This document shows positions 17,267 through 36,765 of a stretch of DNA of 64,000 nucleotides, piece after piece (within the stretch, counting starts at the first letter, position 1; each line of letters starts with the position of its first letter). The notes under the pieces were generated by a model, which was not told the DNA's origin, did no database searches, and saw only the letters and a program-made list of their open reading frames with translations. Source of the stretch: a phage; the sequence record PZ386955.1. One strand, written 5' to 3'. The translations under genes and the position numbers were made by a program.

Positions 17267-17902
17267 ATGGGAATACCATTTGATTTAAAACTTGATGGTT
17301 CTAACGATTTAGTAATGGTGGATGGTGATTTAACACTAACCACAACTAAAAGTGAAATTGCAGCACAGACGCTTGGAATAACACTTAGAACTTTCCGTGG
17401 AGAATGGTTCCTCAACTCTAATTTTGGGGTTCCATATCTGCAAGAGATTATTGGTGTTGCCAAGAAGAAAGAGATTGTTGATCGCATTTTCTTATCAACT
17501 ATCGCAAGTAATGTTTATATAGATAATATTAATTCCTACACATCCTCTTATGATAGAGATGATAGGTATTACTCAATGAACGTTACTGTTACAGTTGGTG
17601 AACAAGTTGTTAGTGCTCTATTCAGTACACAGCCGTCTGAAGAATATATCTATCCAGAAGCTGGTGACGATAATGCAGCAATCACTTGTGAAGCATTTGA
17701 AATTGTTGAATCTGCAAATAGACTCTATCGCTTTATTAACATTGTTGGTCTTCCTAGAGATACTTATTCTACTTGGTGGAATGAGTGGTCTAACGAGGCA
17801 TTGATTGAAAAATACCTTGTTAACGAAGCCAATAAAGGTCTTGCAACCAATTACAACTATGCATTAACAGCAACAATGGGAGCTACAAATAATAATGGCT
17901 GA
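17267..17902 (+). CDS. Baseplate wedge protein (gp25 / gpW-like N-terminal domain)
   Basis: N-terminal pattern (DG..LVMVDGDL...Q.LGITLRTFRGEWFLN..FGVPYLQEI) typical of gp25/W-like proteins; position after spike. Confidence 0.45.
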   Translation: MGIPFDLKLDGSNDLVMVDGDLTLTTTKSEIAAQTLGITLRTFRGEWFLNSNFGVPYLQEIIGVAKKKEIVDRIFLSTIASNVYIDNINSYTSSYDRDDRYYSMNVTVTVGEQVVSALFSTQPSEEYIYPEAGDDNAAITCEAFEIVESANRLYRFINIVGLPRDTYSTWWNEWSNEALIEKYLVNEANKGLATNYNYALTATMGATNNNG

Positions 17903-18368
17903 TTTAACTACAATCAAGGTGTCTGATCTACCTGTAACAACATCTGTTTCAGACACAGATTATTTTGTAACAGATCAATCAGGCATCACTAAGAAAACAT
18001 CATTACGTGTTCTTCTTGCGGGTGCTGGTGTTACACGAAATCGTCTTTCTGCAAGGGGTACTGTCACAAATACCCTAGCTTTAGATATTAGCACGGCAGA
18101 GTATTTCTCTGCCACTTTATCTAGTCCAACTTGCAGTATTTCATTTAGTAATGTTCCAGTTACAACTAACATTGTTCAAAACTTTACTCTATCCCTACGT
18201 CAAGGCAGTGGAGCAAATAAAGTAACGTGGCCTCAATCTGTTAAATGGAGTTTTGGTCGCGCTCCTGTTTTGAGTTATAAACAGGGAGCTACAGATATTT
18301 TTGAATTTGTTAGTTATGATAATGGAGCTACCTGGATAGGTAGTTTAGTGATGGCAGGAGTGATTTAA
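17895..18368 (+). CDS. Hypothetical tail fibre-related protein
   Basis: N-terminus (IKVSDLPVTTSVSDTDYFVTDQSG..KKTSL) resembles the N-terminal anchor motif of the tailspike at 23421. Confidence 0.4.
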   Translation: MADLTTIKVSDLPVTTSVSDTDYFVTDQSGITKKTSLRVLLAGAGVTRNRLSARGTVTNTLALDISTAEYFSATLSSPTCSISFSNVPVTTNIVQNFTLSLRQGSGANKVTWPQSVKWSFGRAPVLSYKQGATDIFEFVSYDNGATWIGSLVMAGVI

Positions 18369-21244: not shown

Positions 21245-21252
21245 GGAAAATA

Positions 21253-23412
21253 ATGAAACAGGCTATTTTTACTGTAACTCGAAATACGAGAGTAAATGCC
21301 AGTTCATTCAGCTATAAGACCGTCGATGGAACGGCGGTCGCTGGTAGAGATTATGTAGCTAAACAGGGAACAGTAACGTTCCCTTCTGATGCAGATTCTG
21401 CTACTGTAGTGGTTGATGTATATGAACGTCCGGCAAACTCTTTAGATCTTTATTTTACTCTTGAGATTACTAGCATAAGTCAAAATAACATGATGATCAA
21501 CGAAGAAATTCGTTGTGTTATTACGACTGATCAATCGAATACAACCCCGCTAACTTGGCCTGTTGTGAAGTCTAGAATGTTTGATCCTAAGTTTTGGACA
21601 ATAGATTCTCAAGCAACAGAAAGTTGTTCTATTATCTCTAATGGTGATTCTTTCACAGCAAGAATGGTTAATAGGACAGTGGCTGGTCTTGCTGGGATTA
21701 TTTGGTCAACTTACGATAAATATGATCACAAAGGATTAGGCTACCAAGAACATTCTGACTTAAGTAAAGAGAAACTTTGGTTTAAAATGGAACTTAGTCA
21801 AGGTGTTCCTGGATTAAAAGAAGAAAAATTAATACCATCCTTAACAGTGACACTGAAGGATGAAACAGTTCATTATGTATCTCTAAACTTTTATGCAGAA
21901 GAAGTTTCAGAAGATGGTAAGACAGCAACAATCAAACTAGATTTCTCAAATTTAAAATCTGGGCCAGAAAATGATATTGTTGTTGACACTACACAGATAG
22001 ATAATATGTTCTTCTCCTTGATCTCCACAAGGTATCAAGAAATTGAAGATATTATTCCTGTAGACAATGTGGATCTTTCCTTTAAGTTTACCATACTGGA
22101 GCCTGATACTGGTTACAGTATGATGAATATGGGTAATTTAAATGTTCCGGCGCACACCATAAGAATGTGTACATCTTATGATGATATGTATAACCTAACC
22201 CCGGAGCGAGTTATTTCTAACACCTATAGATTAGGTTATAGAGATATGATTAACCATTATAATGGTATGTCACATTATTATCAATTTAGTTGGGACGCTG
22301 GCTCTAATAAATGGGCTTTGAACAGAACAGAATATTTAAACCCAGCAACAGAAGCCTGGTTTGATAACTTCCACGCTAATGCAAAAGCTATGGGCTACAC
22401 AGTAATGAACTCCTTAAGTTTTGAACTTATGAGTACAGTGTGTCCCGTAGAATGGGTACAACATACTTGGAATGATGATCTGGCTGCTACAGGTTATGAG
22501 CCACCAAGTTATGTTTTATCTCCTTCAATTGATGAAGGGATGAATTATTTACAAGGTGTAATAAATAAGATAGCTTCTATATCCGCTGCTAATGATCTTC
22601 CGGTTATTATTCAGGTTGGTGAACCGTGGTGGTGGTATAACACAGCTACCAATCTCCCGTGTATTTATGATTATACAACCAAAGTTGCATTTAATAATGA
22701 AACTGGATTGTATGCACAAGATGTTGGTACAGTTAAAAATTATAAAACTGGTACACCATATGATGAATATTATGCATTCCTATCTAAAACATTAGGACTG
22801 CGTGTTGCTAAATTTGCAACAGATACCAGATTAGCATACCCTGGAGCGAAAGTTACATTGTTACCATTTGTACCATCCATCTTAGGTAATGGTATGATGG
22901 AGTTTGTTAACTTCCCTAAAGATTATTATATTCCAGAAAACTTTGACTTTTATTGTTCAGAATGTTATGACTGGTTGTTGGAAGGCAAGATGGAAAGATC
23001 TTTCGACGCTATCACAATACCTAATGAGCAACTAGGTTTTAGTTATGATAAGATACATTATCTTGCAGGGTTTGTTCCAGACGCAACTCTAGCACCATTA
23101 TATGGCTTTGATCCTGAATCAAACTATAGAACATATTTGTGGAAAATGATTATAGGCAATATTGTCTTGAATGACCAGAAGTTTGTTGGTTTATATCAAT
23201 ACATATGGGCTTACCCACAAATAATGCATGATTCAATAACTGTTCTTAATTCAAAATCCCAAGTGTTTTATATGGGTAATGTGCCTTTGAATTGCTACTT
23301 GCAAGATATCACTCTTAAACAGGTAAATGTTGAGATTGCCACTATAAGTGGAATTACATTAGCCACTAAATCTGGAGAAGATTTAGTAACAACACAAAAA
23401 TTTTATATATAG
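21253..23412 (+). CDS. Large virion protein (719 aa), probable fibre/spike component
   Basis: Long Trp-rich ORF in the fibre block; no recognisable catalytic motif. Confidence 0.45.
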   Translation: MKQAIFTVTRNTRVNASSFSYKTVDGTAVAGRDYVAKQGTVTFPSDADSATVVVDVYERPANSLDLYFTLEITSISQNNMMINEEIRCVITTDQSNTTPLTWPVVKSRMFDPKFWTIDSQATESCSIISNGDSFTARMVNRTVAGLAGIIWSTYDKYDHKGLGYQEHSDLSKEKLWFKMELSQGVPGLKEEKLIPSLTVTLKDETVHYVSLNFYAEEVSEDGKTATIKLDFSNLKSGPENDIVVDTTQIDNMFFSLISTRYQEIEDIIPVDNVDLSFKFTILEPDTGYSMMNMGNLNVPAHTIRMCTSYDDMYNLTPERVISNTYRLGYRDMINHYNGMSHYYQFSWDAGSNKWALNRTEYLNPATEAWFDNFHANAKAMGYTVMNSLSFELMSTVCPVEWVQHTWNDDLAATGYEPPSYVLSPSIDEGMNYLQGVINKIASISAANDLPVIIQVGEPWWWYNTATNLPCIYDYTTKVAFNNETGLYAQDVGTVKNYKTGTPYDEYYAFLSKTLGLRVAKFATDTRLAYPGAKVTLLPFVPSILGNGMMEFVNFPKDYYIPENFDFYCSECYDWLLEGKMERSFDAITIPNEQLGFSYDKIHYLAGFVPDATLAPLYGFDPESNYRTYLWKMIIGNIVLNDQKFVGLYQYIWAYPQIMHDSITVLNSKSQVFYMGNVPLNCYLQDITLKQVNVEIATISGITLATKSGEDLVTTQKFYI

Positions 23413-23420
23413 GAGTAAAA

Positions 23421-25019
23421 ATGTCAACTACAATTACTAATTTACCCGAAACATCAAAAGTTAATGGTTCTGATTACCTGGTTTTAGACCAACCTGATAA
23501 GACTGTTAAAAGCACAGTTTCCAACTTTCTTACTGACACTGGGGTGGTTTTAGCCACCCAGTTGAAAGATACAGATGGTGCACAGTTGGTTGGATTCGGC
23601 CCTGGGCATACAGTTGCGGACTTAAAAAGTCCGACCACGGCAAACGGTGATGCCTTAATTCCAGTTGTTCAGCCGTACCCAAATGCTGTAGTAACCACTG
23701 TTCATGAGAAGATGGACGAGATTAAAACTGTAGTAGATTGGGGAGCCGTCAGTGACGTAGAGTCATCATCGGCTGCACAAAAGATGGTTGATGATACGGG
23801 AACATTAATTGTACCTGCTGGATTTAATTTGGTTGCTAAAAATATAAATATCTCCAGCGCCGACAAAGTGTTCATTTACGGAAAAATGACTTTACCGTCT
23901 GGATGTGTAGATTTTGACCGAGCCTTGTATGCGTACAGCAACACGCGGGGTCTTCAGGTGTATATTAACGAAATAGACGGTAATAAGGCTGGTCAGTCCG
24001 GCGATAACGTAGGCACACATTTATTGTATTTAATACAATGCCAGAAAGTGAATGTATACGTTAAGTACGCGCACAGTAACTACTTCAGCCGTACCTATAC
24101 GCCTGTACCGTCCCCCGATGGATTCCGTACTGAATCAGCTGGTGCCTTGTTCTTCCATGAATGCCACTACTCTCAATTCATCGCTGACAGAATTGAGAAT
24201 TGGGGTCGTGAAGGTATTATGGCTAATAAAACCAACTACTCCGTAATGGCGCTAGGTTTAGCGTTAGGTGATGCTAGTTCCAACGGGCAGGAGTACAGCG
24301 GCTTCCAATTTTCCGGTGACTACAATAACCTGCTATATGCTAATGTAGAGAACTCCGGTGCAAGCGGGGGTAGCTTTGACTGTCGTTATAGCCATGCTGG
24401 TACTATCAAGGTTATTAGAAACAAGTACTTTGGAAGCGTCGGATTTGGCCATTCTAATTCCCCTGCTGAGTACAACGTGATTGATTGTATCATTAGCATT
24501 AACTCCGCTGCTAACGGTTTCCAGTTTGCAGCCAACAGCAATAACAACCGAGTACTATCTGCAACCGTAATAAGTCCAGCGGCTGTAGGCATAAACCAGT
24601 CAGACGGCGCTGATAACAATAGTGTTGACAACTTCACAGTTAAAGACCCAGGAGCCTATCACGTAACAGCTTTTAACTCTACGTTAACGCTAACTAACGG
24701 CGACTTAACAAGCAACGCCAACAACAAGACCAGGCTAAACGCCGTAGGGACAGGAAAGTTCATACTCAGAAACGTTCGCTTAGACCCAGAAAAACCACTC
24801 CATATGCGCGCCTTCAATGGTTTAGCCGGAAACTCTAGGGCAGATATAGTAGACGCAAACATAAATGTTTGGTCACATATAATTATTGTACCCGCTAATG
24901 CAAATGGGGCGTTGGCAAATGCCTATGTAGCAGCAGTTAATAACGGCTCTTGCACTATAGCTACCGCTTCTGGTTCTCCTGCTGGGTCGGGGGCTAGTTT
25001 TAGGTATATGGTGGTTTAA
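23421..25019 (+). CDS. Tailspike / receptor-binding protein (beta-helix-like), compositionally distinct
   Basis: N-terminal anchor motif (ITNLPETSKVNGSDYLVLDQPDKTVKSTVS); Asn/Gly/Ser-rich repeats; central and C-terminal part visibly richer in G/C than neighbours. Confidence 0.5.
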   Translation: MSTTITNLPETSKVNGSDYLVLDQPDKTVKSTVSNFLTDTGVVLATQLKDTDGAQLVGFGPGHTVADLKSPTTANGDALIPVVQPYPNAVVTTVHEKMDEIKTVVDWGAVSDVESSSAAQKMVDDTGTLIVPAGFNLVAKNINISSADKVFIYGKMTLPSGCVDFDRALYAYSNTRGLQVYINEIDGNKAGQSGDNVGTHLLYLIQCQKVNVYVKYAHSNYFSRTYTPVPSPDGFRTESAGALFFHECHYSQFIADRIENWGREGIMANKTNYSVMALGLALGDASSNGQEYSGFQFSGDYNNLLYANVENSGASGGSFDCRYSHAGTIKVIRNKYFGSVGFGHSNSPAEYNVIDCIISINSAANGFQFAANSNNNRVLSATVISPAAVGINQSDGADNNSVDNFTVKDPGAYHVTAFNSTLTLTNGDLTSNANNKTRLNAVGTGKFILRNVRLDPEKPLHMRAFNGLAGNSRADIVDANINVWSHIIIVPANANGALANAYVAAVNNGSCTIATASGSPAGSGASFRYMVV

Positions 25020-25026: not shown

Positions 25027-25049
25027 CCCCCTCTTCGGAGGGGTTTACT
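25027..25049 (+). terminator. Rho-independent terminator after the tailspike gene
   Basis: CCCCCTC-TTCG-GAGGGG hairpin followed by TTTACT. Confidence 0.5.
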
Positions 25050-25069: not shown

Positions 25070-25219
25070 ATGAACGAAATGTTCTCGCAAGGCGGTATTG
25101 CCCCAGGTATTACTGCCATTAGTCTTAGTGCTGCTGTACTTGTGCATTCAGCGGGTTCTGTAGACCTTGGGGAATTAGCTGTATCTCGTGATTTAAAAAG
25201 TAATGAGAACGCACTATGA
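25070..25219 (+). CDS. Small hydrophobic protein (49 aa), not in ORF track
   Basis: ATG with GAGG RBS; MNEMFSQGGIAPGITAISLSAAVLVHSAGSV...; stop overlaps next start (ATGA). Confidence 0.3.
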   Translation: MNEMFSQGGIAPGITAISLSAAVLVHSAGSVDLGELAVSRDLKSNENAL

Positions 25220-25461
25220 GAAAATTTTTAATAGGTATGTTCTGTACATATCCTGATAATAAAGTCAGTTCTACTAAAGTTTGGAATGCTATTGGTATGA
25301 TTGTTATGTCCAGTATGTTTATTTATTTGGGAATTGATAAAGAAATTCCTGAATGGATGGGCTGGGCTTTTGTTTTTATGATCACACCATCCAGACTAAT
25401 GAAGAATTTAATAGATTTACGTTGGGGCAGATCACCTGCCCCTGATAAGGAGGATAACTAA
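25216..25461 (+). CDS. Small membrane protein (two predicted TM helices)
   Basis: 81 aa with hydrophobic stretches IGMIVMSSMFIYLGI and WMGWAFVFMI; coupled to neighbours. Confidence 0.4.
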   Translation: MRKFLIGMFCTYPDNKVSSTKVWNAIGMIVMSSMFIYLGIDKEIPEWMGWAFVFMITPSRLMKNLIDLRWGRSPAPDKEDN

Positions 25462-26948
25462 TGGCAGATTATGGTTTAACAGATGCTGGTTTTGTAATTC
25501 CAACGTTTGATGATATTTTAAATAATTATATGACAGCATTGAAAAACACTTTCGGTGCAGATACAGCTACATCTGAAGATACTGTCTTTGGTCAACTGTT
25601 CCGTATTATTGCATACACAGATTACACCCTTTGGGAAGGTATGCAAGGTGTTTACAATACCCAAACCTTAGATGGTGCAGAAGGTATTTACCTTGATGAA
25701 ATCTTCTCTAAAAGAGGTTTTTATCGTAAAGCTGCTTCTGCTGGTAGTGGTTATGCTTATGTTAAATCTAACAATAAGGCAGCTTGGACTTATGAACTAA
25801 GCACAGATGTTTATTTTAATGCCGATAACGATTTGACATATTATGTCAGTGCACCAACAATGTTGAATGCTAAGATTGGAGCATATACCATTTCTAAAGC
25901 AAACGCAACAGCTTCTGGTGAAACTTCTATTACTTTCTACATTCAAAGTGCTATTGATGGTGGTCTTAACAGTAAAACACTAAGTCCTAGCAATACAAAC
26001 TTTATTTTAGATCTCACAAATTTCATTAAAGCTAACGTATCAACAACAGATCGTGCTTTAGTATGGAATGATGCTAGTAATGTTTATATGGGTTATAATC
26101 CAGAAGATAATGTTAACCCAATAGGTCTAGTAACACCAGTGAAATTTTACGCATCTATTGCAATAGGTACAAAATGGAGTGAAATTCCAGTTACGTGTTC
26201 AGACGTTGGTTATAATCCAGTAGGTACAGAAAGTATCACAGGTATTTCTTCAACGTTTACAGGCTTTTTAGATACAGGTAACTTCTATCCATTCTCTCCA
26301 GGTACAGATGTTGAAACAGATGCAGAATTCCGCTCTCGTTTCAATGATAATATGGATGAAGCTAATGCTGCTACTCGTGCTGCTATTGTTAAAGCTCTGC
26401 TACTGACAGATGGTGTGACAAAGGTTAAGATTTATGATAACCCTACATTACACGATCAGGAACATGCGCCAGCTATGACATTCCAGACTATTGTGTATGG
26501 TGGTACAGCAGAAGAAGTTGCACAGGTTATTTATAATACTAAGCCTATTAACACCTTAACCTATGGTACAACAGCAATTACTATCGTAACAGAAGATGGC
26601 GGTCAAGAAGTAATTCGTTTTTCTCCTGGTGACAATGCTGAATATTCACTTAAACTAGTATATCAAACTGGTAATGGTAGTGTGCTAAGTACAACAGAAA
26701 GGGAAAATATTGTTTCTGCTCTTGCAAACTTACAGGCTTATTTTGAATTAGGGTCAACAGTAACTAACGACCAGATAAAAGGTGTAATTTATTCTGCACT
26801 TGCGTTCGGACGCTTGACTTCTCTCCGTGTTTATGTTAAACTTAATACTGAGGATGACAGTAAATATAATGAGGGAGATATCACTCCAGCGTACAATGTT
26901 GTACCATCCTTTGACCTTGATAATATTTCCTACGAGTACGGAGTCTAA
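25461..26948 (+). CDS. Baseplate J-like protein (P2 gpJ / Mu gp47 family)
   Basis: N-terminal pattern (LTDAGFVIPTFDDIL...FGADTATSEDTVFGQLFRIIAY...GIYLDEI) typical of baseplate J; followed by gpI-like and fibre genes. Confidence 0.5.
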   Translation: MADYGLTDAGFVIPTFDDILNNYMTALKNTFGADTATSEDTVFGQLFRIIAYTDYTLWEGMQGVYNTQTLDGAEGIYLDEIFSKRGFYRKAASAGSGYAYVKSNNKAAWTYELSTDVYFNADNDLTYYVSAPTMLNAKIGAYTISKANATASGETSITFYIQSAIDGGLNSKTLSPSNTNFILDLTNFIKANVSTTDRALVWNDASNVYMGYNPEDNVNPIGLVTPVKFYASIAIGTKWSEIPVTCSDVGYNPVGTESITGISSTFTGFLDTGNFYPFSPGTDVETDAEFRSRFNDNMDEANAATRAAIVKALLLTDGVTKVKIYDNPTLHDQEHAPAMTFQTIVYGGTAEEVAQVIYNTKPINTLTYGTTAITIVTEDGGQEVIRFSPGDNAEYSLKLVYQTGNGSVLSTTERENIVSALANLQAYFELGSTVTNDQIKGVIYSALAFGRLTSLRVYVKLNTEDDSKYNEGDITPAYNVVPSFDLDNISYEYGV

Positions 26949-26950: not shown

Positions 26951-27580
26951 ATGGCAGTGAGTGTTGACCATGTGACAACGTGGGATAGTATCAATGAAGA
27001 TGTTAAAGACCTACTGATTGAAGATTTTAAATCTTCTCCGAACATTGTCAAACTACTCTATATCATTTCTAGCGAAAAACAAAAGATAGATCAGGCAATG
27101 ATCTATCTTGCCAAACACCGCTTAATCTCTACTGCAACTGGTAAGTATTTAGATCTTATTGGTGAAGAAATGGGGATGGAAAGAAATGGTGCTACAGATG
27201 AAGAGTATCGTACAATATTAAAAATCAGGGCTTATCGTGTTGCGTCTTCTGGTACGCGAGATGATATCATTGATATGTTCGCTCGTTTTACAGGAACAGA
27301 AAAAGAAACGATCAATACATACGTTGGATTAAATAAAACATTCGACGTATTCTTTTATAATTTGTGTCTACAATCCGATCAGGCAGTAGCACAGTTACTT
27401 AACGTTTTCCCGATCCTAAGTAGTTATCGCTTAGGTGCGAAAGCGGGTTCAGCCTTTGGTTTCACTTCCTATTATGCCACAAAGCCACCTCATGGTATAG
27501 GTGGTTTAGGTTCTCTTTACACAGAGGCTGAAGGAGATGACACAGGGCGAATGACTATGCTGATAGCTCAAATAGAATAA
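26951..27580 (+). CDS. Baseplate protein (P2 gpI-like position)
   Basis: 209-aa ORF between J-like gene and tail fibre gene; synteny only. Confidence 0.4.
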   Translation: MAVSVDHVTTWDSINEDVKDLLIEDFKSSPNIVKLLYIISSEKQKIDQAMIYLAKHRLISTATGKYLDLIGEEMGMERNGATDEEYRTILKIRAYRVASSGTRDDIIDMFARFTGTEKETINTYVGLNKTFDVFFYNLCLQSDQAVAQLLNVFPILSSYRLGAKAGSAFGFTSYYATKPPHGIGGLGSLYTEAEGDDTGRMTMLIAQIE

Positions 27581-27593: not shown

Positions 27594-28574
27594 ATGGCAA
27601 AGCCACAATACTACCCTGACTGGGCGACACAAACAGTAACCCTCCCAGGAACGGGAAACACAAACAAGATTAGACCAAAAGAAACCATCCGTAATGTTGG
27701 TATGGACTTTGGTCAGATTATGACTTGTGAAGAAATGAACTGGATTTTAAACAATATTGGGTCTTGGATTCGCTACATGCAAGATGAATTCTTCCCAACA
27801 TTGCCTACTACATATCTTCCTATAGTCGGTACTAAAATTACAATGGCAGGTGATGCTACAGGTGAAGTTACATGGAATGGTAATGCTGCTGTAACATTAT
27901 CTATTCAAGTCGTAGATAACAGCCATAATCACTTATCAGCTAATATTACAGACGCAACATCAAACCAAGTTGTAGGGAATGTCCTTGTTAAGCGTGATAA
28001 TGGTGGTGCTATCTATGCAGGTGATATTTACACTTGTGGTACAGGTGCTACAGATCCTGCAACATTATTTTTTAGAAACTATAATGGACAAACAGTAGGC
28101 AATATGTCTTCTGAACCAGGTGCAGGTGGTCAACTCTATATTTATAGAATAAATCCATCTACTGGAGGAACATCTTGTGGAGTTCGTTTGTATGATGCAG
28201 GTTATGTTTTAATAGACAATCCTCGTTCTAATTCTGGTCAAGATACTGGTAATGGTAATGCTCTTGTAAGATTAGATTATCTTAACTCAAGACTAAACTC
28301 ATTGCAAAGCACACTGCAAAATAATATTAACAACGTTAATAGCAACTTGCAAGGCCAAATTAATAACATTAACAATAGAGTTTCTTCTGTTGTGTCTTCT
28401 ATCCGTCTAGGTACACGTATTAAAGCTGGTGTATCTGAATCTCCTTTCTATGCTGGTCACGTGATCACAGGTTGGGGTTTTGGTGATAAGAAAGAACTTC
28501 GTGGTGCTTGGTATTGGTCTGCTCCGCTACAATATTACATTAATGGTAGGTGGATAACAGTAACCAACGTTTAG
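27594..28574 (+). CDS. Tail fibre protein
   Basis: 326 aa, Gly/Asn/Thr-rich, located after J/I-like genes. Confidence 0.45.
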   Translation: MAKPQYYPDWATQTVTLPGTGNTNKIRPKETIRNVGMDFGQIMTCEEMNWILNNIGSWIRYMQDEFFPTLPTTYLPIVGTKITMAGDATGEVTWNGNAAVTLSIQVVDNSHNHLSANITDATSNQVVGNVLVKRDNGGAIYAGDIYTCGTGATDPATLFFRNYNGQTVGNMSSEPGAGGQLYIYRINPSTGGTSCGVRLYDAGYVLIDNPRSNSGQDTGNGNALVRLDYLNSRLNSLQSTLQNNINNVNSNLQGQINNINNRVSSVVSSIRLGTRIKAGVSESPFYAGHVITGWGFGDKKELRGAWYWSAPLQYYINGRWITVTNV

Positions 28575-28586: not shown

Positions 28587-29138
28587 ATGAAAAAAGATGT
28601 TATTTACACTGGCTTTGAACTATATCAACCAGAATTGACAGAAGAAAATGTCATCTATCTTTCAATAGGTGCTGGTTTTCTTAAAGATAAAGATGGTAAT
28701 GATTGGTACGAAATTCAGAAATATTTATCCAAAAATTACCCTGATGCCTATTTCTTAACTCTAGATCACAACAATGTAGTTGTTGCAGCTACGAAAGATG
28801 TTTCTACATATTTTCCCGCTGGTCTTACTGTTCTTGTAACATACAATGTTCCAGATAAAATAGAAGAAGAAAGCAACCTAGGGTCGTGGAGATATGACAA
28901 TGGTAAGTTTATTTCTCATAATGGGTTTGCAATAGAAGATGCCAACCTTAAAATGGAAAAAGAATTAACTTGGGCCACAAATCAAATATCTGCAATTCAA
29001 GATTTAGAGGAATTACAAGGTTTATCTGAAGAACAAAAAGATTGGTTAGGAAAAGTTAAACTCTATCGTGCAACATTAATTCAAATTAACGTTGAAGATG
29101 CACCTAATATAACTTGGCCTACAAGACCTAAGAAATAG
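28587..29138 (+). CDS. Hypothetical protein (possible tail fibre assembly chaperone)
   Basis: 183-aa ORF immediately downstream of the fibre gene; synteny only. Confidence 0.3.
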   Translation: MKKDVIYTGFELYQPELTEENVIYLSIGAGFLKDKDGNDWYEIQKYLSKNYPDAYFLTLDHNNVVVAATKDVSTYFPAGLTVLVTYNVPDKIEEESNLGSWRYDNGKFISHNGFAIEDANLKMEKELTWATNQISAIQDLEELQGLSEEQKDWLGKVKLYRATLIQINVEDAPNITWPTRPKK

Positions 29139-29147
29139 GGGCAATGT

Positions 29148-29489
29148 ATGGAGCTAACAGAAGTATGGGATATCGCTAAAGAGGCGATTATCCCTCTTAT
29201 TGGCGTAATCTGGGTGGTCTTCAAACAGAAGATAGATGATATGGCAAGTGATTTGGATAAAATGGAAGACAAATACCGCGAACTAGAAAAGAAGTTGGTG
29301 TTTGTTGAATCCACTTATGCTACCAAAGCAGAACTTGCTCAAATGCTTAACCAGATCAACTCTACATTAATGGCAAATAATACTGCCTTAGAACAGAAGA
29401 TTGAAAAAATAATGGATTTAAAAAATGCTCCTGTTCAATTAATGTTAGAGGAGATTACAAAGCGCACACAAAGTAAGGACAAAAATTAA
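29148..29489 (+). CDS. Hypothetical coiled-coil protein
   Basis: 113 aa, N-terminal hydrophobic segment then charged helical region. Confidence 0.4.
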   Translation: MELTEVWDIAKEAIIPLIGVIWVVFKQKIDDMASDLDKMEDKYRELEKKLVFVESTYATKAELAQMLNQINSTLMANNTALEQKIEKIMDLKNAPVQLMLEEITKRTQSKDKN

Positions 29490-31903
29490 TGGCGAATTTT
29501 CCAACATATCCTGCTACGACACTAGAACAAGGTGTTGATCTGGTTATATTCTCGTCTAACCAGATGCATGATGTTATTAATGGGGATGCTACAGCAACTG
29601 TAGAAACCGAAACAGGTTTAATACCTACACTGCGTAAAGCACTTGTTGATAACTTCTTCTTTAAGAGTCCTGTTGCTTGGTCAGCAGGATCAACTGAAAC
29701 TGTATTTAACCAGTTACGTTATTTTGAAAACGGTATCTTGAGTGGGTACTATTATGCTCCATCTGCCACTACTGCGAACCCTGTACCTATGCAGGGTACA
29801 CCTGTAGGAGACAGTAACTGGACTCTGTACGCTCTTAAAACTGAACAGTTAGCTTCAGATGTGTATCCTTGGTATTTTAAAGGTGCTACAGGATATGAAA
29901 CAGAAATCAGTCCTCCTTATATCTTTGATAATGCTATTGTCACCATTAACGGTGTAATTCAGATTCAAGGTGAAGCATTTACTATCAAAGATAGTAAAAT
30001 TATTCTGGCAGAACCATTAGGTTTAGATCCGTCTACTGGTCTACCTAATAAATTGTTTGCTTTTATTGGTAAAACAACAGCCTCTACTTCTTACGTAGAG
30101 AAAAACCTTTTGTCATCTACCACTGGTGCAGCAATGGTTGGTCTTCCATCTGGAGGCAACCTGTTACAAGCTCAATACTTTGTAACGCCTGAGCAGTTTG
30201 GTGCAATTGGTGATGGAGTTACCGATGATACTCAAGCAATTTTAAAAACCATTACTTTCGCTAACACGAATAACATTCAAGTACGTGCAGATAAGAATTA
30301 TAGATTCACAAGCTCAATTGCTATGTCTGGTATTCGTTGGTATGGTGGTACATTCACTGGTAACGGTGGAACAATGATTTCTACTGTGTCCTGTTGGATG
30401 GAAAACGTTCGCTTTGAAAAATGTTATGTTAAGATGTTAGGTGGTGATTGCCGATTCTATCGTAATATCTTCTCCAACGCAACATCTACAGCAGCATTCT
30501 TAATGCAAGCAATGACAAGTGAAGGTACGTTGGACTTCAGTTACAACGAAATGTATGGTTGTAAATATGCGATCCTGCAACAAGGTACTGGAGAAGTAAT
30601 GACCTACGGGCGTTACTCTAACAACTATATTCACGATATTAAAGGTGATGCTATTGAACTTAACGTAGTTCAAAAACACTACACTGAAGGTTTGATTATC
30701 GAGAATAACCACATTGCTAACGTAGATGCTTCTGGACAAGGGGCAAACTGGGGTATTGGTATTGGTGTAGCAGGTAGTGGCCCATATGGTGTTGATGTTC
30801 CTGATTCACAATATGTACGTAATTTCAGTATCATTGGGAATAGGGTTTACAATTGCCGTCAATGTTTACACGTTGAAATGGGTAAAAACTTCACAATACG
30901 TGATAATGAAGTTTATCCTAACACAGCAGTTTCAACAGGTACAGGTTTAACTACTTGTGGTGTTGCATTATACGGATGCCAAGATTTTGAAGTTGATGGT
31001 TTAACTGGTTATCTGCTTAATGATCCATCTGTTTCAACACGCATGGTCTTTATTGACTGGGGTGTTAACAGTGGAAGATATGCGGGGCCACCAATTAACT
31101 TTACAATTAAGAATTTGGATATTCCAGAATCTTCAATTGAGATTGCAACGGCTGGATCAGATGCCTGGGAAAACTCTACAATTGTTAGTAACATCAATTG
31201 TAATGTTTTTAAATGGCGTGGACTACCATCTAGCTCTACCTTTAATAACATTCGTTGCCGTAGCATTGACTTTATTGGTCAACATGGAAGCGGAGAAGGA
31301 AGTGGTGGCGGTTTCTATACTCGCAGCCAATTCACGTATATGAAGTGGGTAGGATGTACAGCACTTAGCGGAGATGAAACAACAGTTTCTTTTGCTAAAA
31401 TCTACACTGATCGTTGCGATCAGGTTGGAAATAACTTTGGTGTTCCAACTGCTGTTGATGGTACAGGTCATCGTGGGCCAGTTTTAACTACTATCTCTGA
31501 ACAATATTTTACAGCTTATGATGAATTCCCAGGTGGGCGTGAATTCCCTACTGGAACAGTTATTCATTGTGCAAGCGGTAAAAAACATGTTGTTACAGTA
31601 GGTGGTGCTTTCTTTAGTGCCAACGAGAAAATAAAAGCAACTGTTACAGGTCAAACCTATCTACAGTCTAATGCTTTAAACTGGGCTAGTAATGGCTACG
31701 CTAAAGCAGCAGGTACTAAGATTGTTATTCCAGGTGCAGGTGCAAATGGAGGAGATCTTGTGACAACTATAGCACGTGCTACATATGTGACAAATAGTTT
31801 GTACACAATAGATATTGCAGATCCAATTGTAACACCTACAGCAGAGAATACACAAATTAAAGCTCTGAATCCTGTTACTTTTGTTACTGTCAACAATGCT
31901 TAA
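29489..31903 (+). CDS. Tailspike with pectate-lyase-type right-handed beta-helix (putative depolymerase)
   Basis: Motif QFGAIGDGVTDDTQAI typical of the N-terminus of pectate lyase / GH28-like beta-helix domains; 804 aa. Confidence 0.6.
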   Translation: MANFPTYPATTLEQGVDLVIFSSNQMHDVINGDATATVETETGLIPTLRKALVDNFFFKSPVAWSAGSTETVFNQLRYFENGILSGYYYAPSATTANPVPMQGTPVGDSNWTLYALKTEQLASDVYPWYFKGATGYETEISPPYIFDNAIVTINGVIQIQGEAFTIKDSKIILAEPLGLDPSTGLPNKLFAFIGKTTASTSYVEKNLLSSTTGAAMVGLPSGGNLLQAQYFVTPEQFGAIGDGVTDDTQAILKTITFANTNNIQVRADKNYRFTSSIAMSGIRWYGGTFTGNGGTMISTVSCWMENVRFEKCYVKMLGGDCRFYRNIFSNATSTAAFLMQAMTSEGTLDFSYNEMYGCKYAILQQGTGEVMTYGRYSNNYIHDIKGDAIELNVVQKHYTEGLIIENNHIANVDASGQGANWGIGIGVAGSGPYGVDVPDSQYVRNFSIIGNRVYNCRQCLHVEMGKNFTIRDNEVYPNTAVSTGTGLTTCGVALYGCQDFEVDGLTGYLLNDPSVSTRMVFIDWGVNSGRYAGPPINFTIKNLDIPESSIEIATAGSDAWENSTIVSNINCNVFKWRGLPSSSTFNNIRCRSIDFIGQHGSGEGSGGGFYTRSQFTYMKWVGCTALSGDETTVSFAKIYTDRCDQVGNNFGVPTAVDGTGHRGPVLTTISEQYFTAYDEFPGGREFPTGTVIHCASGKKHVVTVGGAFFSANEKIKATVTGQTYLQSNALNWASNGYAKAAGTKIVIPGAGANGGDLVTTIARATYVTNSLYTIDIADPIVTPTAENTQIKALNPVTFVTVNNA

Positions 31904-31907
31904 TTAA

Positions 31908-31930: not shown

Positions 31931-31944
31931 AAAGGAGTAGTAAA

Positions 31945-33909: not shown

Positions 33910-33934
33910 AAGCCCCTTCGGGGGCTTATTATTT
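33910..33934 (+). terminator. Rho-independent terminator
   Basis: AAGCCCC-TTCG-GGGGCTT hairpin followed by ATTATTT. Confidence 0.55.
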
Positions 33935-33945
33935 AAGGAGATTAA

Positions 33946-36765
33946 ATGTATCCTATTCCTTTATTTATGTCAACAACATCAGCTTCAGTAGTAACAGCTA
34001 CATCTATAACCACTTCCTCTATTGGTATTGCAATAGTTGGTAGTAAAAAGCAACTGACATACACAGTTTCACCGGAAGATGGTGCGTTATTTGATATAGC
34101 TTTTTCATCTTCAGATAATACCAAAATGGTTATAGATAATAGTGGTATGATGGAGTTTGTTGCCGAAGGTGGTTTTGATGCAATAATGACAGCTAAAAAT
34201 AATTTAGGTGCTGTCTTAACTGATCAATCTGGTGGTTATGCTTCAGAATTAAGCGTGTACACTGAAAGTCTATCAGCTATGGATGTAGGCACTACTCAAC
34301 AGTTGGTTGCTACAATCAGTCCAGAAGGTGCTAAAGATCTTCCAGACATGGTAATTACGTACACCACAACAGATCCAGAAGTAGCTACTGTAAGCCCTAC
34401 AGGATTAATAACTGCTCTTAAAGATGGTAATTGCCGTATAGGTTGTACTGCAACGTATCAAGGAACAGTGGTGGCCTCTGATAGTTCTTATTTAGGTGTT
34501 AATGCTATTCCTGTCATTTCTAATGTAACAGCCGTGGCAAACAGCTATGGAGACGTTCGTGTTGCTTGGGATGTAGCTGATCCGCTAGATGGTGATACTT
34601 ATACTGTAGAAGTATTAGATTTAAGTAATAATAGTGTCCAGTGGACTACAACAACCACGAATACTTACGCTTACTTTGATATCTCTGACTCTATTCCTCT
34701 TTATGGGTTTGCTCCAACATACCTTAAAATTAGCGTTAAGAGCACCAAAGCAGCAGCCGTTATCTTTAATAACTCAATAGCTACAGATGATTCATTCATT
34801 AAAGAAGTTATTGTCTTTGCTGGACAAGATAACGTAAATGCACACTTTACAGAATTATCTGGTGCAAATAAAGCAGCAATGAGTAGCACAACAGTCCGTA
34901 ATGCATATGCTACGCAACGTGGTTTAGCAAATGCTGAAGTTCTTCCGTTAAATACAGCTTCTGGATCATCAGCAGCAGATAAATATGCTGACGATAAAGC
35001 TGGAACAGGTACACCAGACAACTACTGGTATGATCTGGATAACACAGCAGATGGGCCATGCTTAACTAACTTTATCACTAAAGTCACACCTTATGCAAGT
35101 AAGGTTAAAGCAATTGTTTGGGGACAAGGTGAAAATGATGCTGTATCAGCATCTTCAACTGTTGCAGGTAGGTACAGTAACACTACACGTTACCATGATG
35201 CTACGATAGCTATCTTTGATAAGATGCGTACAATAGTTCCTGCTTCTCAAGCAAAAATTGTTTGGCAGATCCTAGGACGTTCTTATTTATATGGTGTAGA
35301 AGTTAATGGTGTGGATTGGCAGAAGTACAGAAATGTACAAAGAACCATCTCTACAGCACGTGATGATGTTATCATTGGTTCTTGGGTAGATGGTGCTGAA
35401 CGTTACAGTGGCTATGTTTATGAAGAAGGTATTGATGGTCGTATCCATTATGTTTCTTCTGTATACCAAACAGCAGCTACAAAACTTGCTAAATCGGCAG
35501 CAGACGGTACAGACTTAACATCAACGTCACCTGTTTGGGTTGATATGGCTGTTCCAACTGGAGCAACAGCTACTTCCCAATCTAATCAAGATACAATTTT
35601 AGCATGGGATGCTCAAGGCTATAGTAAACACTACTTCCGTAATATTAACGTCTTAACAGCATCTGTATTAACGGAACAAACGCTTAATACGAACAGCTAT
35701 ACGTTTACCTATGCAGATCAAGTAGCACAATATGGTTTTGCAGCAGGAACTACTATATTTGATGTTGCATATTATGACGAAGCAAATGATGTGTTATCTC
35801 CTTTAGTACGTTTTAATGTTAACGTTACAGCAGGAACCGAAGAAGATAAACCTGTCGTGATGGACTATGATTTGACGCAAGAAACTCTCCCATCAGATGT
35901 TAAGGTTAATGGTGGGAACTCTTTTGCTCGTGCTTCTGGAGATAAACTTGTAGCCACTAACACCTTGGTTGCTCCGTTGGAGTATGTTGGTACTACCCCT
36001 GTAGGTAGACGTGTAACAGCTAACACAGCTACACAAATTTTTGTCAACAACGCCTTAACAAGTGCAAGCCCGTGGGTAAAGACCAACTTAACTGTTGCAG
36101 CTTCATCTGATAACTCTCCGGCTGGAACTACTGCTAATGTATTCAAATTAACTCCGACTACAACCTCTAGTAGTCATATCTTAACTGCGACATATACTAA
36201 CGCGTACAACATATCTGCCGGACGTAACTGGTCTGCCTCTGTTTTCTTGAAAGCGAATGGGATTACTAAGGCCAAACTAAGATTAAAAGCAGGAACTGAA
36301 GTTAATGAGGGTACTTTTGATTTAGCAGCAGGTACATTCACAGGAAGTGAAGCTAATATTATATCTATGGGCAACGGTTGGTATCGTGCTATTCTGCATA
36401 AAACAGGGATAGCCAAACAGTCCTCCATAAGTTTTGAAATAATTGCCTTGGATGCAACTGGTGCGGAGATTTTCGCTGGAGATGGTACTAGTAACCTTGC
36501 AGTTTGGTTGCCACAGCTTGAAGGTGCTTCTACAGGAGAAACATCAAAAGCTGGATCGCCTTATGTCTGCACATATCCTGGAAATTTAGGAGGAGTATCC
36601 TTCACTATACCAAGGAACGGACATACTGGTGTGGATGTTTACTATTCCAACGGAGACGTTGTTCGTGACGTATTCTCTGGTACGGCATCTACTTGGACAA
36701 TAAACTACTCCAGCTTGTATGATTGGGGATCAGTCTTTATTACAGGTTTGAAATATTACGACTAA
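33946..36765 (+). CDS. Tail fibre/spike with Ig-like region and SGNH-type esterase-like domain
   Basis: VIVFAGQDNVNAH (GQSN-like block) and KAIVWGQGENDA (W.QGE.D block) in the order seen in SGNH acetylesterases; 939 aa. Confidence 0.5.
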   Translation: MYPIPLFMSTTSASVVTATSITTSSIGIAIVGSKKQLTYTVSPEDGALFDIAFSSSDNTKMVIDNSGMMEFVAEGGFDAIMTAKNNLGAVLTDQSGGYASELSVYTESLSAMDVGTTQQLVATISPEGAKDLPDMVITYTTTDPEVATVSPTGLITALKDGNCRIGCTATYQGTVVASDSSYLGVNAIPVISNVTAVANSYGDVRVAWDVADPLDGDTYTVEVLDLSNNSVQWTTTTTNTYAYFDISDSIPLYGFAPTYLKISVKSTKAAAVIFNNSIATDDSFIKEVIVFAGQDNVNAHFTELSGANKAAMSSTTVRNAYATQRGLANAEVLPLNTASGSSAADKYADDKAGTGTPDNYWYDLDNTADGPCLTNFITKVTPYASKVKAIVWGQGENDAVSASSTVAGRYSNTTRYHDATIAIFDKMRTIVPASQAKIVWQILGRSYLYGVEVNGVDWQKYRNVQRTISTARDDVIIGSWVDGAERYSGYVYEEGIDGRIHYVSSVYQTAATKLAKSAADGTDLTSTSPVWVDMAVPTGATATSQSNQDTILAWDAQGYSKHYFRNINVLTASVLTEQTLNTNSYTFTYADQVAQYGFAAGTTIFDVAYYDEANDVLSPLVRFNVNVTAGTEEDKPVVMDYDLTQETLPSDVKVNGGNSFARASGDKLVATNTLVAPLEYVGTTPVGRRVTANTATQIFVNNALTSASPWVKTNLTVAASSDNSPAGTTANVFKLTPTTTSSSHILTATYTNAYNISAGRNWSASVFLKANGITKAKLRLKAGTEVNEGTFDLAAGTFTGSEANIISMGNGWYRAILHKTGIAKQSSISFEIIALDATGAEIFAGDGTSNLAVWLPQLEGASTGETSKAGSPYVCTYPGNLGGVSFTIPRNGHTGVDVYYSNGDVVRDVFSGTASTWTINYSSLYDWGSVFITGLKYYD

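What the first reader, a model, noticed from the sequence alone, without database searches (positions are those of the whole stretch)
17895..36765. Large multi-protein adsorption apparatus: several distinct fibre/spike genes including predicted depolymerase and esterase domains
Seen in sequence: a beta-helix-like spike (23421-25019), a pectate-lyase-type spike with QFGAIGDGVTDDTQAI (29489-31903), a collagen-like fibre (31945-33906), an esterase-domain fibre (33946-36765), a short fibre (27594-28574), plus two very large Trp-rich proteins (18368-21244, 21253-23412). Inference: a branched receptor-binding complex, probably targeting several surface polysaccharides.
Basis: partly seen in the sequence, partly recalled or inferred. 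Interest (0 to 1): 0.4.

Follow-up and report, generated by a model that had tools for sequence, protein, structure and literature searches.

The report
Phi92-type multi-fibre phage adsorption apparatus
This is the well-known "Swiss-army-knife" tail-fibre and baseplate gene cluster of a phi92-like E. coli phage, almost identical to phi92 itself except that one tailspike has been swapped for an O-antigen-type spike and the last fibre gene is intact.

Summary
All ORFs sit at the stated coordinates, and the quoted motif and the collagen repeats are present.

The window is a Justusliebigvirus (phi92-like) myophage. Genes 17895-33906 are collinear with phi92 gp140-gp151, and 11 of the 12 are 96-100% identical in protein.

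- **Swapped spike.** The 532-aa spike (23421-25019) occupies the phi92 endosialidase slot. It keeps only the first ~54 residues. Its body is absent from 50,697 deposited phage genomes but 81-91% identical to tailspikes of a P22-like E. coli prophage and a siphovirus-like contig.
- **"Pectate-lyase spike".** This is the phi92 colanidase gp150 (99.4% identical; PDB 6e0v).
- **"Esterase fibre".** It has only a sub-threshold SASA-like domain, homologous to N4 gp65, with Asp where relatives carry the nucleophile Ser. It is probably a binding module rather than an esterase.
- **Other genes.** The span also holds wedge, chaperone and membrane-protein genes.

Ordinary and already explained; low interest.

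The parts
17895..18368 (+). gp140-like 157-aa fibre-like protein
   Evidence: 100% aa identity to phi92 gp140. PHROG 9017 'tail fiber protein', E 1e-69. Its N-terminus (aa 9-46) resembles the N-terminus of the 532-aa spike (37% id, E 4.5e-4). Listed as a fibre candidate in PMC13450770.
18368..21244 (+). gp141-like 958-aa conserved tail protein: (alpha/alpha)6 glycoside-hydrolase-like barrel with inserted beta-sandwich (CBM-like) domains
21253..23412 (+). gp142-like 719-aa protein: Calx-beta + N4 gp65 N-terminal domain + N4 gp64-type TIM barrel (putative glycan deacetylase; NGR-glycan candidate binder)
   Evidence: Pfam PF03160, PF23844 and PF23845, all above cut-off. PDB 9lc0_M (N4 gp64) E 2e-27 and 9lc0_I (gp65) E 4e-12. 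BLASTP mapping to N4 gp64 and gp65. NGR dependence of phi92-like phages from PMC8669472 and PMC11990801.
23421..23582 (+). Conserved N-terminal anchor (first ~54 codons) of the spike in the phi92 gp143 slot
   Evidence: 94% aa identity to phi92 gp143 aa 1-54. Nucleotide homology to relatives stops at window 23582.
23583..25019 (+). Swapped receptor-binding body of the 532-aa tailspike (O-antigen-type, probable right-handed beta-helix)
   Evidence: No tblastn hit beyond aa ~180 in 50,697 phage genomes. 81-91% identical to tailspikes carrying other anchors (P22 head-binding, TSP1/gp66-N, T7 fibre-N). Found in a P22-like prophage next to an Oac-like acyltransferase and an integrase, and in a siphovirus-like contig. 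The cap region is homologous to the Sf6 tailspike (hhalign prob 98.8). Beta_helix hits 7 of 21 homologues.
25028..25044 (+). Hairpin CCCCTC-TTCG-GAGGGG just after the spike stop codon, at the point where homology to relatives resumes
   Evidence: Read from the sequence. Homology to KMB37/alia resumes at 25028.
25070..25219 (+). 49-aa ORF: either a leftover of an earlier spike cassette or a small conserved gene
   Evidence: ORF listed. 96% identical to a KMB37 CDS annotated 'tail spike'. Absent from phi92.
25216..25461 (+). gp144-like 81-aa membrane protein
   Evidence: 96% identical to phi92 gp144. PHROG 1322 'membrane protein'.
25461..26948 (+). gp145 baseplate wedge subunit (Baseplate_J)
   Evidence: Pfam PF04865. 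99.8% identical to phi92 gp145, which is modelled in the cryo-EM baseplate.
26951..27580 (+). gp146 baseplate wedge subunit
   Evidence: PF11041 and PHROG 4056. 99% identical to phi92 gp146.
27594..28574 (+). gp147 short tail fibre (phi92 fibre III)
   Evidence: 99.4% identical to phi92 gp147, which cryo-EM identifies as fibre III. N-terminal aa 2-72 is homologous to the wedge-binding N-terminus of the phiTE short tail fibre (PDB 9cuy_c, E 2e-11).
28587..29138 (+). gp148 tail-fibre assembly chaperone
   Evidence: Pfam Caudo_TAP PF02413, E 3e-11. 100% identical to phi92 gp148.
29148..29489 (+). gp149-like 113-aa protein (hydrophobic N-terminus plus coiled coil; the 'lipoprotein' label is not supported)
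   Evidence: PHROG 15210. No cysteine, so no lipobox.
29489..31903 (+). gp150 colanidase tailspike (colanic-acid depolymerase)
   Evidence: 99.4% identical to phi92 gp150. PDB 6e0v, 1428 bits over aa 180-804. PHROG 6117 'colanic acid degradation'. N-terminal aa 12-126 is homologous to the baseplate-anchoring N-terminus of the phiTE long tail fibre (9cuy_g, E 9e-18). Enzymology is cited in PMC13450770.
31945..33906 (+). gp151 collagen-like fibre with TSP1/gp66-type N-terminal anchor and a foldon-like motif
   Evidence: Pfam PF18668 (E 3.5e-21), Collagen (E 9e-8) and Fibritin_C (E 1e-3, below cut-off). G-X-Y runs. 98.3% identical to phi92 gp151.
33910..33927 (+). Terminator-like hairpin after the gp151-like gene
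33946..36765 (+). 939-aa multi-domain fibre or appendage protein: Ig-like (Big_2) domains, a SASA-like alpha/beta domain with Asp295 in place of the Ser nucleophile, beta-sandwich domains and a C-terminal jelly-roll-like domain. It is the intact form of the fragmented phi92 gp152/gp153.
   Evidence: Pfam Big_2. SASA sub-threshold. Alignment shows GQDN against GQS[NH] in relatives. Homology to two tandem domains of N4 gp65 (E 6e-32; Foldseek E 6e-25; BLASTP). AF2 model pLDDT 68. phi92 fragmentation.
36769..36792 (.). Bidirectional terminator-like hairpin closing the late tail operon (convergent with minus-strand genes)
   Evidence: The strand switch also shows in the GC skew and the ORF map.

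Best explanation
The region is the distal half of the late tail operon of a phi92-like (Justusliebigvirus, Stephanstirmvirinae) E. coli myophage. It encodes the baseplate periphery and a multivalent adsorption apparatus.

Shown here:
- Gene-for-gene collinearity with phi92 gp140-gp151, with 96-100% protein identity at every gene except the gp143-slot spike.
- gp145 and gp146 are the wedge, and gp147 with its chaperone gp148 is the downward-pointing short fibre (phi92 fibre III).
- gp150 is the colanic-acid-degrading tailspike.

Inferred working model:
- Several trimeric fibres and spikes are displayed together, six copies each.
- gp150 clears colanic acid.
- The spike in the gp143 slot, here an O-antigen-type tailspike module acquired by recombination after codon ~54, binds and probably cleaves one particular E. 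coli O-antigen. It replaces the polysialic-acid endosialidase of phi92.
- gp142 and the 939-aa protein together carry the domain repertoire of the N4 sheath proteins gp64 and gp65. They mediate recognition of the conserved NGR glycan, which lets these phages bypass O-antigen.
- gp141 contributes an (alpha/alpha)6 glycoside-hydrolase-like barrel and CBM-like domains. It is either a further glycan-processing unit or the scaffold arm that carries gp142 and the spike.
- gp151 is a collagen-like fibre docked through a TSP1/gp66-type anchor.
- gp147 makes the final irreversible contact with the LPS core and triggers wedge rearrangement and sheath contraction.
- The SASA-like domain of the 939-aa protein has Asp in place of the catalytic Ser, so it most likely binds glycan rather than hydrolysing acetyl esters.
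For: - Genome identity: 92% of the region aligns at ~98% nt identity to Justusliebigvirus genomes. The ORF order and lengths match phi92 gene_134-151, and aa identities are 96-100% except at the gp143-slot spike.
- Domains: Baseplate_J, DUF2612, Caudo_TAP, NCTSP_N plus NCTSP TIM barrel, Tail_spike_N, Collagen, TSP_Ig-like and Big_2.
- Solved structures: phi92 gp150 (6e0v), N4 gp64/gp65 (9lc0), and the phiTE short and long fibre N-termini (9cuy).
- Spike swap.
- Ser-to-Asp substitution.
- Literature: three fibre sets, fibre III = gp147, and wedge = gp145/146 (PMC13450770). The 'Swiss army knife' picture and the conserved deacetylase fibre (PMC8594841). NGR dependence of Bas60-62 (PMC8669472; PMC11990801).
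Against: - No experiment on this phage is available.
- The virion positions of gp140, gp141, gp142, gp150, gp151 and the 939-aa protein are unresolved even in the 2026 phi92 structure. Fibre II is unassigned, and the fibre I = gp143 assignment is itself speculative.
- The window's spike lacks the TSP1/gp66-type domain that most alleles in this slot carry after the first ~67 aa, so its attachment is assumed rather than shown.
- The beta-helix fold of the spike and any enzymatic activity are not demonstrated.
- The 939-aa model is of only moderate quality (pLDDT 68; residues 630-758 are poor).
- Assigning NGR binding to gp142 and the 939-aa protein rests on homology and on shared host-factor dependence, not on binding data.
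Confidence: 0.88

Rival explanations
1. gp141 and gp142, and possibly the 939-aa protein, are mainly structural scaffold or adaptor arms of the baseplate periphery. An example would be the 'arm' of the L-shaped fibre I that carries the exchangeable spike. On this reading their enzyme-like folds are catalytically inert relics, so the apparatus has fewer independent specificities than gene counting suggests.
For: - gp141 is highly conserved across distant hosts (~45% identity in Pseudomonas, Enterobacter and Stenotrophomonas phages and prophages) and does not vary between close relatives. That pattern is typical of scaffolds, not receptor-binding proteins.
- gp141-like proteins occur fused to variable C-terminal extensions and to gp142-type domains.
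- The phi92 paper describes fibre I as an arm-like scaffold with the enzyme at its tip.
- The BASEL paper notes that most of the locus is conserved.
Against: - The homologous N4 gp64/gp65 sheath is itself the receptor-binding protein.
- Scaffold and glycan-binding roles are not mutually exclusive.
Confidence: 0.35
2. The 939-aa protein is an active carbohydrate esterase, as the first reader and the KMB37 annotation say. It would remove O-acetyl or similar groups from a surface glycan, using Asp295 or another residue in a non-canonical mechanism.
For: - There is a SASA-like alpha/beta domain. Four of five family members hit Pfam SASA (best E 9e-7).
- The QGExD block and His501 are retained in the window protein.
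- Esterase tailspikes are known in Schitoviridae (G7C, Moo19/B2, cited).
Against: - The nucleophile position of the GQSN block is Asp in the window protein and in the three close relatives aligned (87-98% identity). It is GGDN in a sister group, two of whose three aligned members have also replaced the His. More distant relatives and N4 gp65 keep Ser.
- The window copy scores below the Pfam cut-off.
- In phi92 the domain is disrupted exactly at this motif, yet phi92 is a viable broad-host phage.
Confidence: 0.15
3. The 532-aa spike is a capsule or exopolysaccharide depolymerase rather than an O-antigen spike, or it is a poorly attached or non-functional recombinant.
For: - In phi92 the slot holds a capsule depolymerase.
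- One distant homologue (P0021, 28% identity) carries a K1-lyase C-terminal domain (E 1e-3, below the Pfam cut-off).
- The window allele lacks the TSP1/gp66-type domain present in most alleles of this slot.
Against: - The closest homologues (81-91% identity) are tailspikes of a P22-like prophage lying next to an O-antigen acetyltransferase-type gene and an integrase. That is the classic serotype-converting arrangement, also seen in Sf6.
- The reading frame is intact to the family's consensus C-terminus.
- The identical protein occurs on three independent contigs.
Confidence: 0.15

Closest known systems
Escherichia phage phi92 multivalent adsorption apparatus (gp140-gp153; Schwarzer et al. 2012; cryo-EM PMC13450770)
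   Same: Same genus. Identical gene order and ORF lengths from gp134 to gp151, with 96-100% protein identity everywhere except the gp143-slot spike. Same colanidase gp150, short fibre gp147, wedge gp145/146, and gp141 and gp142.
   Different: The gp143 slot holds a 532-aa O-antigen-type spike instead of the 918-aa endosialidase EndoN92; only aa 1-54 are shared. A 49-aa ORF and a hairpin follow the spike. The last gene is an intact 939-aa ORF, whereas phi92 has fragments gp152 and gp153 and lacks aa 199-272 and 629-939.
BASEL Justusliebigvirus phages PaulScherrer (Bas60) and relatives; KMB37, alia, W22
   Same: About 98% nt identity over 92% of the region, with the same intact 939-aa gene.
   Different: They carry other alleles in the spike slot (glycosidase or hydrolase types, many with a TSP1/gp66 N-domain). 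The body of the window's allele is not found in any of 50,697 phage records.
Phage N4 non-contractile sheath gp64/gp65 (PDB 9lc0, 9yf4), the NfrA/NGR receptor-binding unit
   Same: gp142-like aa 106-344 matches the gp65 N-domain and aa 356-608 matches the gp64 TIM barrel. The 939-aa protein's aa 192-610 matches gp65 428-1059, including the duplicated SASA-like domains. Both phage groups depend on the NGR pathway.
   Different: N4 is a podovirus in which these proteins form a sheath around the tail tube. Here the modules are spread over two proteins of a myovirus baseplate. The window protein has Asp where N4 gp65 copy 1 has Ser.
P22/Sf6-type O-antigen tailspikes of Lederbergvirus prophages
   Same: The body of the 532-aa spike is 50-81% identical to prophage tailspikes with the P22 head-binding domain. 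Its cap region is homologous to Sf6 tailspike aa 5-189.
   Different: The anchor is the Justusliebigvirus N-terminus, not the P22 head-binding domain. Beyond the cap there is no detectable sequence similarity to the Sf6 beta-helix.
Pectobacterium myophage phiTE baseplate fibre network (PDB 9cuy; PMC11972413)
   Same: The N-termini of gp147-like and gp150-like are homologous to the phiTE short and long fibre N-termini. In phiTE these bind wedge 1 and wedge 2A plus the sheath-initiator helix, respectively.
   Different: The distal parts are unrelated. phiTE is flagellotropic and lacks the enzymatic spikes.
Branched tailspike complexes of CBA120 (TSP1-4) and G7C (gp63.1/gp66)
   Same: gp151-like, and most alleles of the spike slot, carry the PF18668 TSP1/gp66 N-terminal domain used for spike-on-spike docking.
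   Different: The baseplate context is different, and no XD-type adaptor protein was identified here.

Membership tests
phi92-like (Justusliebigvirus) adsorption/baseplate module | Collinear gene set gp134-gp151 with orthologous proteins | tested here: met
   Same order and ORF lengths. 96-100% aa identity for gp134-gp142 and gp144-gp151. 98% nt identity to genus members.
phi92-like (Justusliebigvirus) adsorption/baseplate module | Exchangeable spike in the gp143 slot with a conserved N-terminal anchor | tested here: met
   aa 1-54 are 94% identical to phi92 gp143, and the rest is unrelated. Many alleles share the first 10-13% of the protein.
Colanidase tailspike (phi92 gp150, PDB 6e0v) | Sequence identity to the crystallised, biochemically characterised enzyme | tested here: met
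   1428 bits over aa 180-804. 99.4% identity. PHROG 6117.
Pectate-lyase-like beta-helix (Pfam PF12708) | Profile match above the gathering threshold | tested here: not met
   16.4 bits against a cut-off of 27, covering only the motif region. The GDGxTDDT-type motif is present.
Right-handed beta-helix O-antigen tailspike (P22/Sf6 type) | Beta-helix body | tested here: inconclusive
   Pfam Beta_helix is matched by 7 of 21 homologues (best E 2e-5) but not by the window copy. No structure was predicted for it.
Right-handed beta-helix O-antigen tailspike (P22/Sf6 type) | Homology to a known tailspike and a prophage tailspike context | tested here: met
   hhalign prob 98.8 to Sf6 tailspike aa 5-189. 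81% identical homologue in a P22-like prophage beside an acyltransferase and an integrase.
SASA/SGNH-type carbohydrate esterase (Pfam PF03629) | Profile match above the gathering threshold | tested here: not met
   Window copy scores 15-16 bits against a cut-off of 24.8. Relatives reach E 9e-7.
SASA/SGNH-type carbohydrate esterase (Pfam PF03629) | Nucleophile Ser in the GQSN block. Its role is taken from established knowledge of the family. | tested here: not met
   FAGQDN at aa 291-296, with Asp295. P0129, P0134 and P0136 have GQS[NH], and N4 gp65 has GES.
SASA/SGNH-type carbohydrate esterase (Pfam PF03629) | Alpha/beta flavodoxin-like fold | tested here: inconclusive
   The AF2 model shows alternating strand/helix elements at aa 287-520 with mixed confidence. 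The best structural match is N4 gp65. No direct fold match to a solved esterase was obtained.
N4 gp64/gp65 non-contractile sheath family (Pfam PF23844, PF23845) | Both domains above threshold | tested here: met
   gp142-like: PF23845 at 274.9 bits and PF23844 at 75.4 bits. PDB 9lc0 hits.
N4 gp64/gp65 non-contractile sheath family (Pfam PF23844, PF23845) | Forms a sheath around a podovirus tail tube | not testable with these tools
   The context here is a contractile-tailed phage, so the quaternary arrangement must differ.
Collagen-like phage fibre | Runs of G-X-Y triplets and a Pfam Collagen hit | tested here: met
   Four runs of 6-9 triplets. PF01391 at 32.2 bits, above the 27.2 cut-off.
(alpha/alpha)6-barrel glycoside hydrolases (GH105/GH88/GH8/GH76-like) | Fold | tested here: met
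(alpha/alpha)6-barrel glycoside hydrolases (GH105/GH88/GH8/GH76-like) | Catalytic acid residues in the family-specific positions | not tested
   Sequence identity to the structural matches is 7-12%, and no residue-level superposition was available.
Mu gpS/phiTE-type short tail fibre with gpU/Tfa chaperone | Wedge-binding N-terminus plus an adjacent Caudo_TAP chaperone gene | tested here: met
   9cuy_c, E 2e-11. PF02413, E 3e-11 in the next gene. phi92 gp147 is fibre III.

The most novel reading that the evidence does not exclude
In phi92-like myophages the N4 receptor-binding sheath has been split and redeployed. On this reading gp142 carries the gp65 N-domain and the gp64 TIM barrel. The 939-aa protein carries the gp65 SASA-like and beta-sandwich domains, with the esterase nucleophile mutated to Asp so that it acts as a lectin. 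Carried on the gp141 glycoside-hydrolase-like arm, these proteins would form the still-unassigned fibre (fibre II, or the arm of fibre I) that reads the conserved NGR glycan and explains how these phages bypass O-antigen. A pseudo-esterase lectin shared between a podovirus sheath and a myovirus fibre does not appear in the papers read here.
Probability: 0.2. Interest if true: 0.45.

Novelty: new member of a known kind. Interest (0 to 1): 0.2.

Why it matters
The apparatus is a textbook case of multivalent host recognition and adds nothing conceptually new. It has three practical uses.

1. It is a natural example of spike exchange at a precisely mapped junction (after codon ~54, with the downstream boundary at a hairpin). 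The donor module also occurs in podovirus-type prophages and siphovirus-like contigs. That is directly useful for engineering the host range of phi92-type therapeutic phages.
2. The domain mapping of gp142 and the 939-aa protein onto N4 gp64/gp65, and the homology of the gp150 and gp147 N-termini to the structurally resolved phiTE fibre anchors, give testable hypotheses for the fibre densities still unassigned in phi92 cryo-EM maps.
3. The Ser-to-Asp change warns against annotating this protein as an active 'tail carbohydrate esterase'.

Tried and rejected
- A profile of spike-532 homologues against the PDB, and hhalign against the Sf6 tailspike, matched only the N-terminal or cap region, not the body. 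The beta-helix therefore could not be confirmed by sequence.
- Foldseek of the whole 939-aa model was swamped by Ig-like domain hits, so no esterase structure could be matched directly. A domain-only profile against the PDB found N4 gp65, while a carbohydrate esterase (9h4u) scored only E 0.74.
- The original phi92 paper (PMC3457257), which holds the virion mass spectrometry, is not in the library. The 'proteomics' paper on O177 phages contains no virion mass spectrometry.
- Promoter-like sites in the region are not more frequent than in shuffled sequence (67 against 60.9 +/- 7.4). No tRNA genes are present.
- I considered and rejected the idea that phi92 lacks the SASA-like domain. tblastn shows phi92 gp153 covers aa 335-628, while aa 199-272 and 629-939 are missing and the GQDN motif lies out of frame.
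- The O-serotype targeted by the spike could not be determined. The homologue-bearing contigs give only +/-6 kb of prophage context.

Full report
**Observation**

All genes lie on the + strand and are tightly packed from 17895 to 36765. The block ends at a strand switch, visible in the GC skew and marked by a bidirectional terminator-like hairpin at 36769-36792.
- The quoted motif QFGAIGDGVTDDTQAI lies at aa 236-251 of the 804-aa protein.
- The 653-aa protein has four G-X-Y runs and a Pfam Collagen hit above cut-off.
- Tryptophan is 3.44% in the 958-aa protein and 2.09% in the 719-aa protein, against a locus mean of 1.71%.

**What the window is**

Megablast of the region finds 156 phage records. 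The best ones cover 92% at about 98% identity: KMB37, W22, alia and PaulScherrer/Bas60, all Stephanstirmvirinae of the genus Justusliebigvirus.

The annotated phi92 genome shows the same gene order and the same ORF lengths for gene_134 to gene_151. tblastn gives 96-100% protein identity to phi92 for the tape measure through gp142 and for gp144 through gp151. The upstream genes are the tube initiator, plug, hub, central spike and sheath initiator.

The literature describes this apparatus in three ways:
- It is a multivalent 'nanosized Swiss army knife' with three co-expressed fibre sets (PMC8594841; PMC11984140).
- In the 2026 cryo-EM study the wedge is gp145/gp146 and fibre III is gp147. Fibre I is tentatively gp143, and fibre II is attached to the base of fibre I but unassigned (PMC13450770).
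- phi92-like phages depend on the NGR glycan pathway, as N4 does (PMC8669472; PMC11990801).

**Gene by gene**

**17895-18368 (gp140-like).** This is a small fibre-like protein (PHROG 9017). Its N-terminus resembles that of the spike.

**18368-21244 (gp141-like, 958 aa).**
- It has no Pfam or PDB sequence match.
- It belongs to a large family: more than 300 homologues, about 45% identical in phages and prophages of Pseudomonas, Enterobacter and Stenotrophomonas. Some members are fused to gp142-type domains.
- The barrel carries beta-sandwich inserts resembling CBM11 and CBM22.

**21253-23412 (gp142-like, 719 aa).** It combines Calx-beta, the N4 gp65 N-terminal domain and the N4 gp64 TIM barrel. 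This is the conserved 'deacetylase' fibre noted by the BASEL authors.

**23421-25019 (532-aa spike).**
- It sits in the slot of the phi92 endosialidase.
- Homology to relatives stops at nt 23582 (codon ~54). It resumes at 25028, 25096 or 25221, depending on the relative.
- Its body has no tblastn match in 50,697 phage genomes.
- In the large protein collection the body is 81-91% identical to tailspikes that carry other anchors. These are a TSP1/gp66 N-domain, alone or with a T7 fibre N-terminus, and the P22 head-binding domain.
- One such homologue (P0003, 81%) lies in a P22-like E. coli prophage, next to an Oac-type acyltransferase and an integrase. Another (P0002, 91%) lies after the tape-measure and distal tail genes of a siphovirus-like contig.
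- The cap region is homologous to the Sf6 tailspike. Pfam Beta_helix is matched by 7 of 21 homologues.
- I infer an O-antigen-specific tailspike module acquired by recombination. The serotype is unknown, and the fold was not modelled.

**25028-25219.** A hairpin at 25028-25044 and a conserved 49-aa ORF at 25070-25219 follow the spike.

**25216-29489.** These genes are not receptor-binding spikes, apart from gp147 itself, which is the short fibre.
- gp144-like membrane protein
- wedge subunits gp145 and gp146
- short fibre gp147
- Caudo_TAP chaperone gp148
- gp149-like protein

**29489-31903 (gp150).**
- This is the phi92 colanidase: PDB 6e0v at 1428 bits and 99.4% identity.
- It is reported to hydrolyse the beta-1,4 Glc-Fuc bond of colanic acid.
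- The pectate-lyase Pfam model is only sub-threshold.
- Its N-terminal 12-126 is homologous to the phiTE long-fibre N-terminus. In phiTE that segment docks on wedge 2A and the sheath-initiator helix.

**31945-33906 (gp151).** It has a TSP1/gp66-type anchor, collagen repeats and a weak foldon-like motif.

**33946-36765 (939 aa).**
- It begins with Big_2 Ig-like domains.
- Next comes an alpha/beta domain followed by beta-sandwiches. These are homologous to the two tandem domains of N4 gp65 (E 6e-32; Foldseek E 6e-25).
- Relatives of this domain match Pfam SASA (best E 9e-7). The window copy does not reach the cut-off.
- The nucleophile position is Asp295 (FAGQDN). Distant relatives have GQS[NH] and N4 gp65 has GES.
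- In a sister group the motif is GGDN, and two of its three aligned members have also replaced the His.
- In phi92 the gene is fragmented: gp152 covers aa 1-198 and gp153 covers aa 335-628. The motif lies out of frame, and aa 199-272 and 629-939 are missing.
- I conclude that an active serine esterase is unlikely and that a glycan-binding role is more probable. This is an inference.

**Mechanism**

Shown by identity to characterised phi92 proteins are the wedge, short fibre, chaperone and colanidase.

Inferred is a set of co-displayed fibres that work in sequence:
1. Colanic acid is removed by gp150.
2. One O-antigen is bound or cleaved by the swapped spike.
3. The conserved NGR glycan is recognised by the N4-like modules of gp142 and the 939-aa protein.
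4. gp141 acts as a glycoside-hydrolase-like processing unit or as the scaffold.
5. gp147 makes the terminal LPS-core contact, which triggers wedge opening and contraction.

The anchor types suggest how the complex is built. The phiTE-type N-termini on gp147 and gp150 point to direct docking on the wedge. The TSP1/gp66-type domain on gp151 and the short shared N-terminus on gp140 and the spike point to docking on other fibre proteins. That supports the 'branched' picture, but no position was verified here.

**Comparison and novelty**

The apparatus belongs to the phi92/Justusliebigvirus family by every feature tested.

Two things are particular to this window. The first is the allele in the spike slot, which is not in deposited phage genomes but occurs identically on three assembled contigs. 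The second is the intact last gene, which it shares with most members of the genus.

The N4-module mapping of the 939-aa protein and the Ser-to-Asp substitution are small additions that I did not find stated in the papers read.

**Verdict**

I rate it a new member of a known kind, with interest 0.2.

Noticed in passing
window 25028-25219: A hairpin (CCCCTC-TTCG-GAGGGG, 25028-25044) lies just after the spike stop codon. A 49-aa ORF with a ribosome-binding site (25070-25219) follows and overlaps the start of the gp144-like gene. The ORF is 96% identical to a KMB37 CDS annotated 'tail spike' and is absent from phi92. It is either a leftover 3' end of an earlier spike cassette or a small conserved gene.
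   Followed up: partly
L003 (phi92) 21321-22983 vs window 33946-36765: The phi92 genes gp152 and gp153 are fragments of the 939-aa gene that is intact here and in most Justusliebigvirus genomes. aa 199-272 and 629-939 are missing in phi92, and the segment with the GQDN motif lies out of frame.
   Followed up: yes
window 29148-29489: The gp149-like protein is labelled 'lipoprotein' in PHROGs and in the phi92 RefSeq record, yet it contains no cysteine and so has no lipobox. It has a hydrophobic N-terminal segment followed by a coiled-coil-like sequence, and it sits between the fibre chaperone and the colanidase.
   Followed up: partly
P0308 and P0293, P0305-P0321 (homologues of window 18368-21244): gp141-like proteins occur as natural fusions. 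Some are joined to N4-type NCTSP domains, giving a gp141+gp142 equivalent of 1557 aa. Others carry long C-terminal extensions (1425-1657 aa). This suggests that gp141 and gp142 act as one unit.
   Followed up: no
window 17895-18030 and 23421-23550: The N-termini of gp140-like (aa 9-46) and of the 532-aa spike (aa 5-42) share a motif (37% identity, E 4.5e-4). This may be a common docking peptide.
   Followed up: no
L008 7840-9681 (E. coli prophage carrying the 81%-identical tailspike): The prophage tailspike is followed by an Acyl_transf_3+SGNH O-antigen-acetyltransferase-type gene and an integrase. This is the same layout as tailspike-oac-int in Sf6, and it points to an O-antigen target for the shared spike module.
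   Followed up: partly
window 36801-37920 (minus strand): Convergent genes lie downstream of the tail operon. They include a 243-aa ORF whose orthologues are annotated as a Dam-like N6-adenine methyltransferase (Bas60_0039) or as a type III methylation subunit (KMB37).
   Followed up: no
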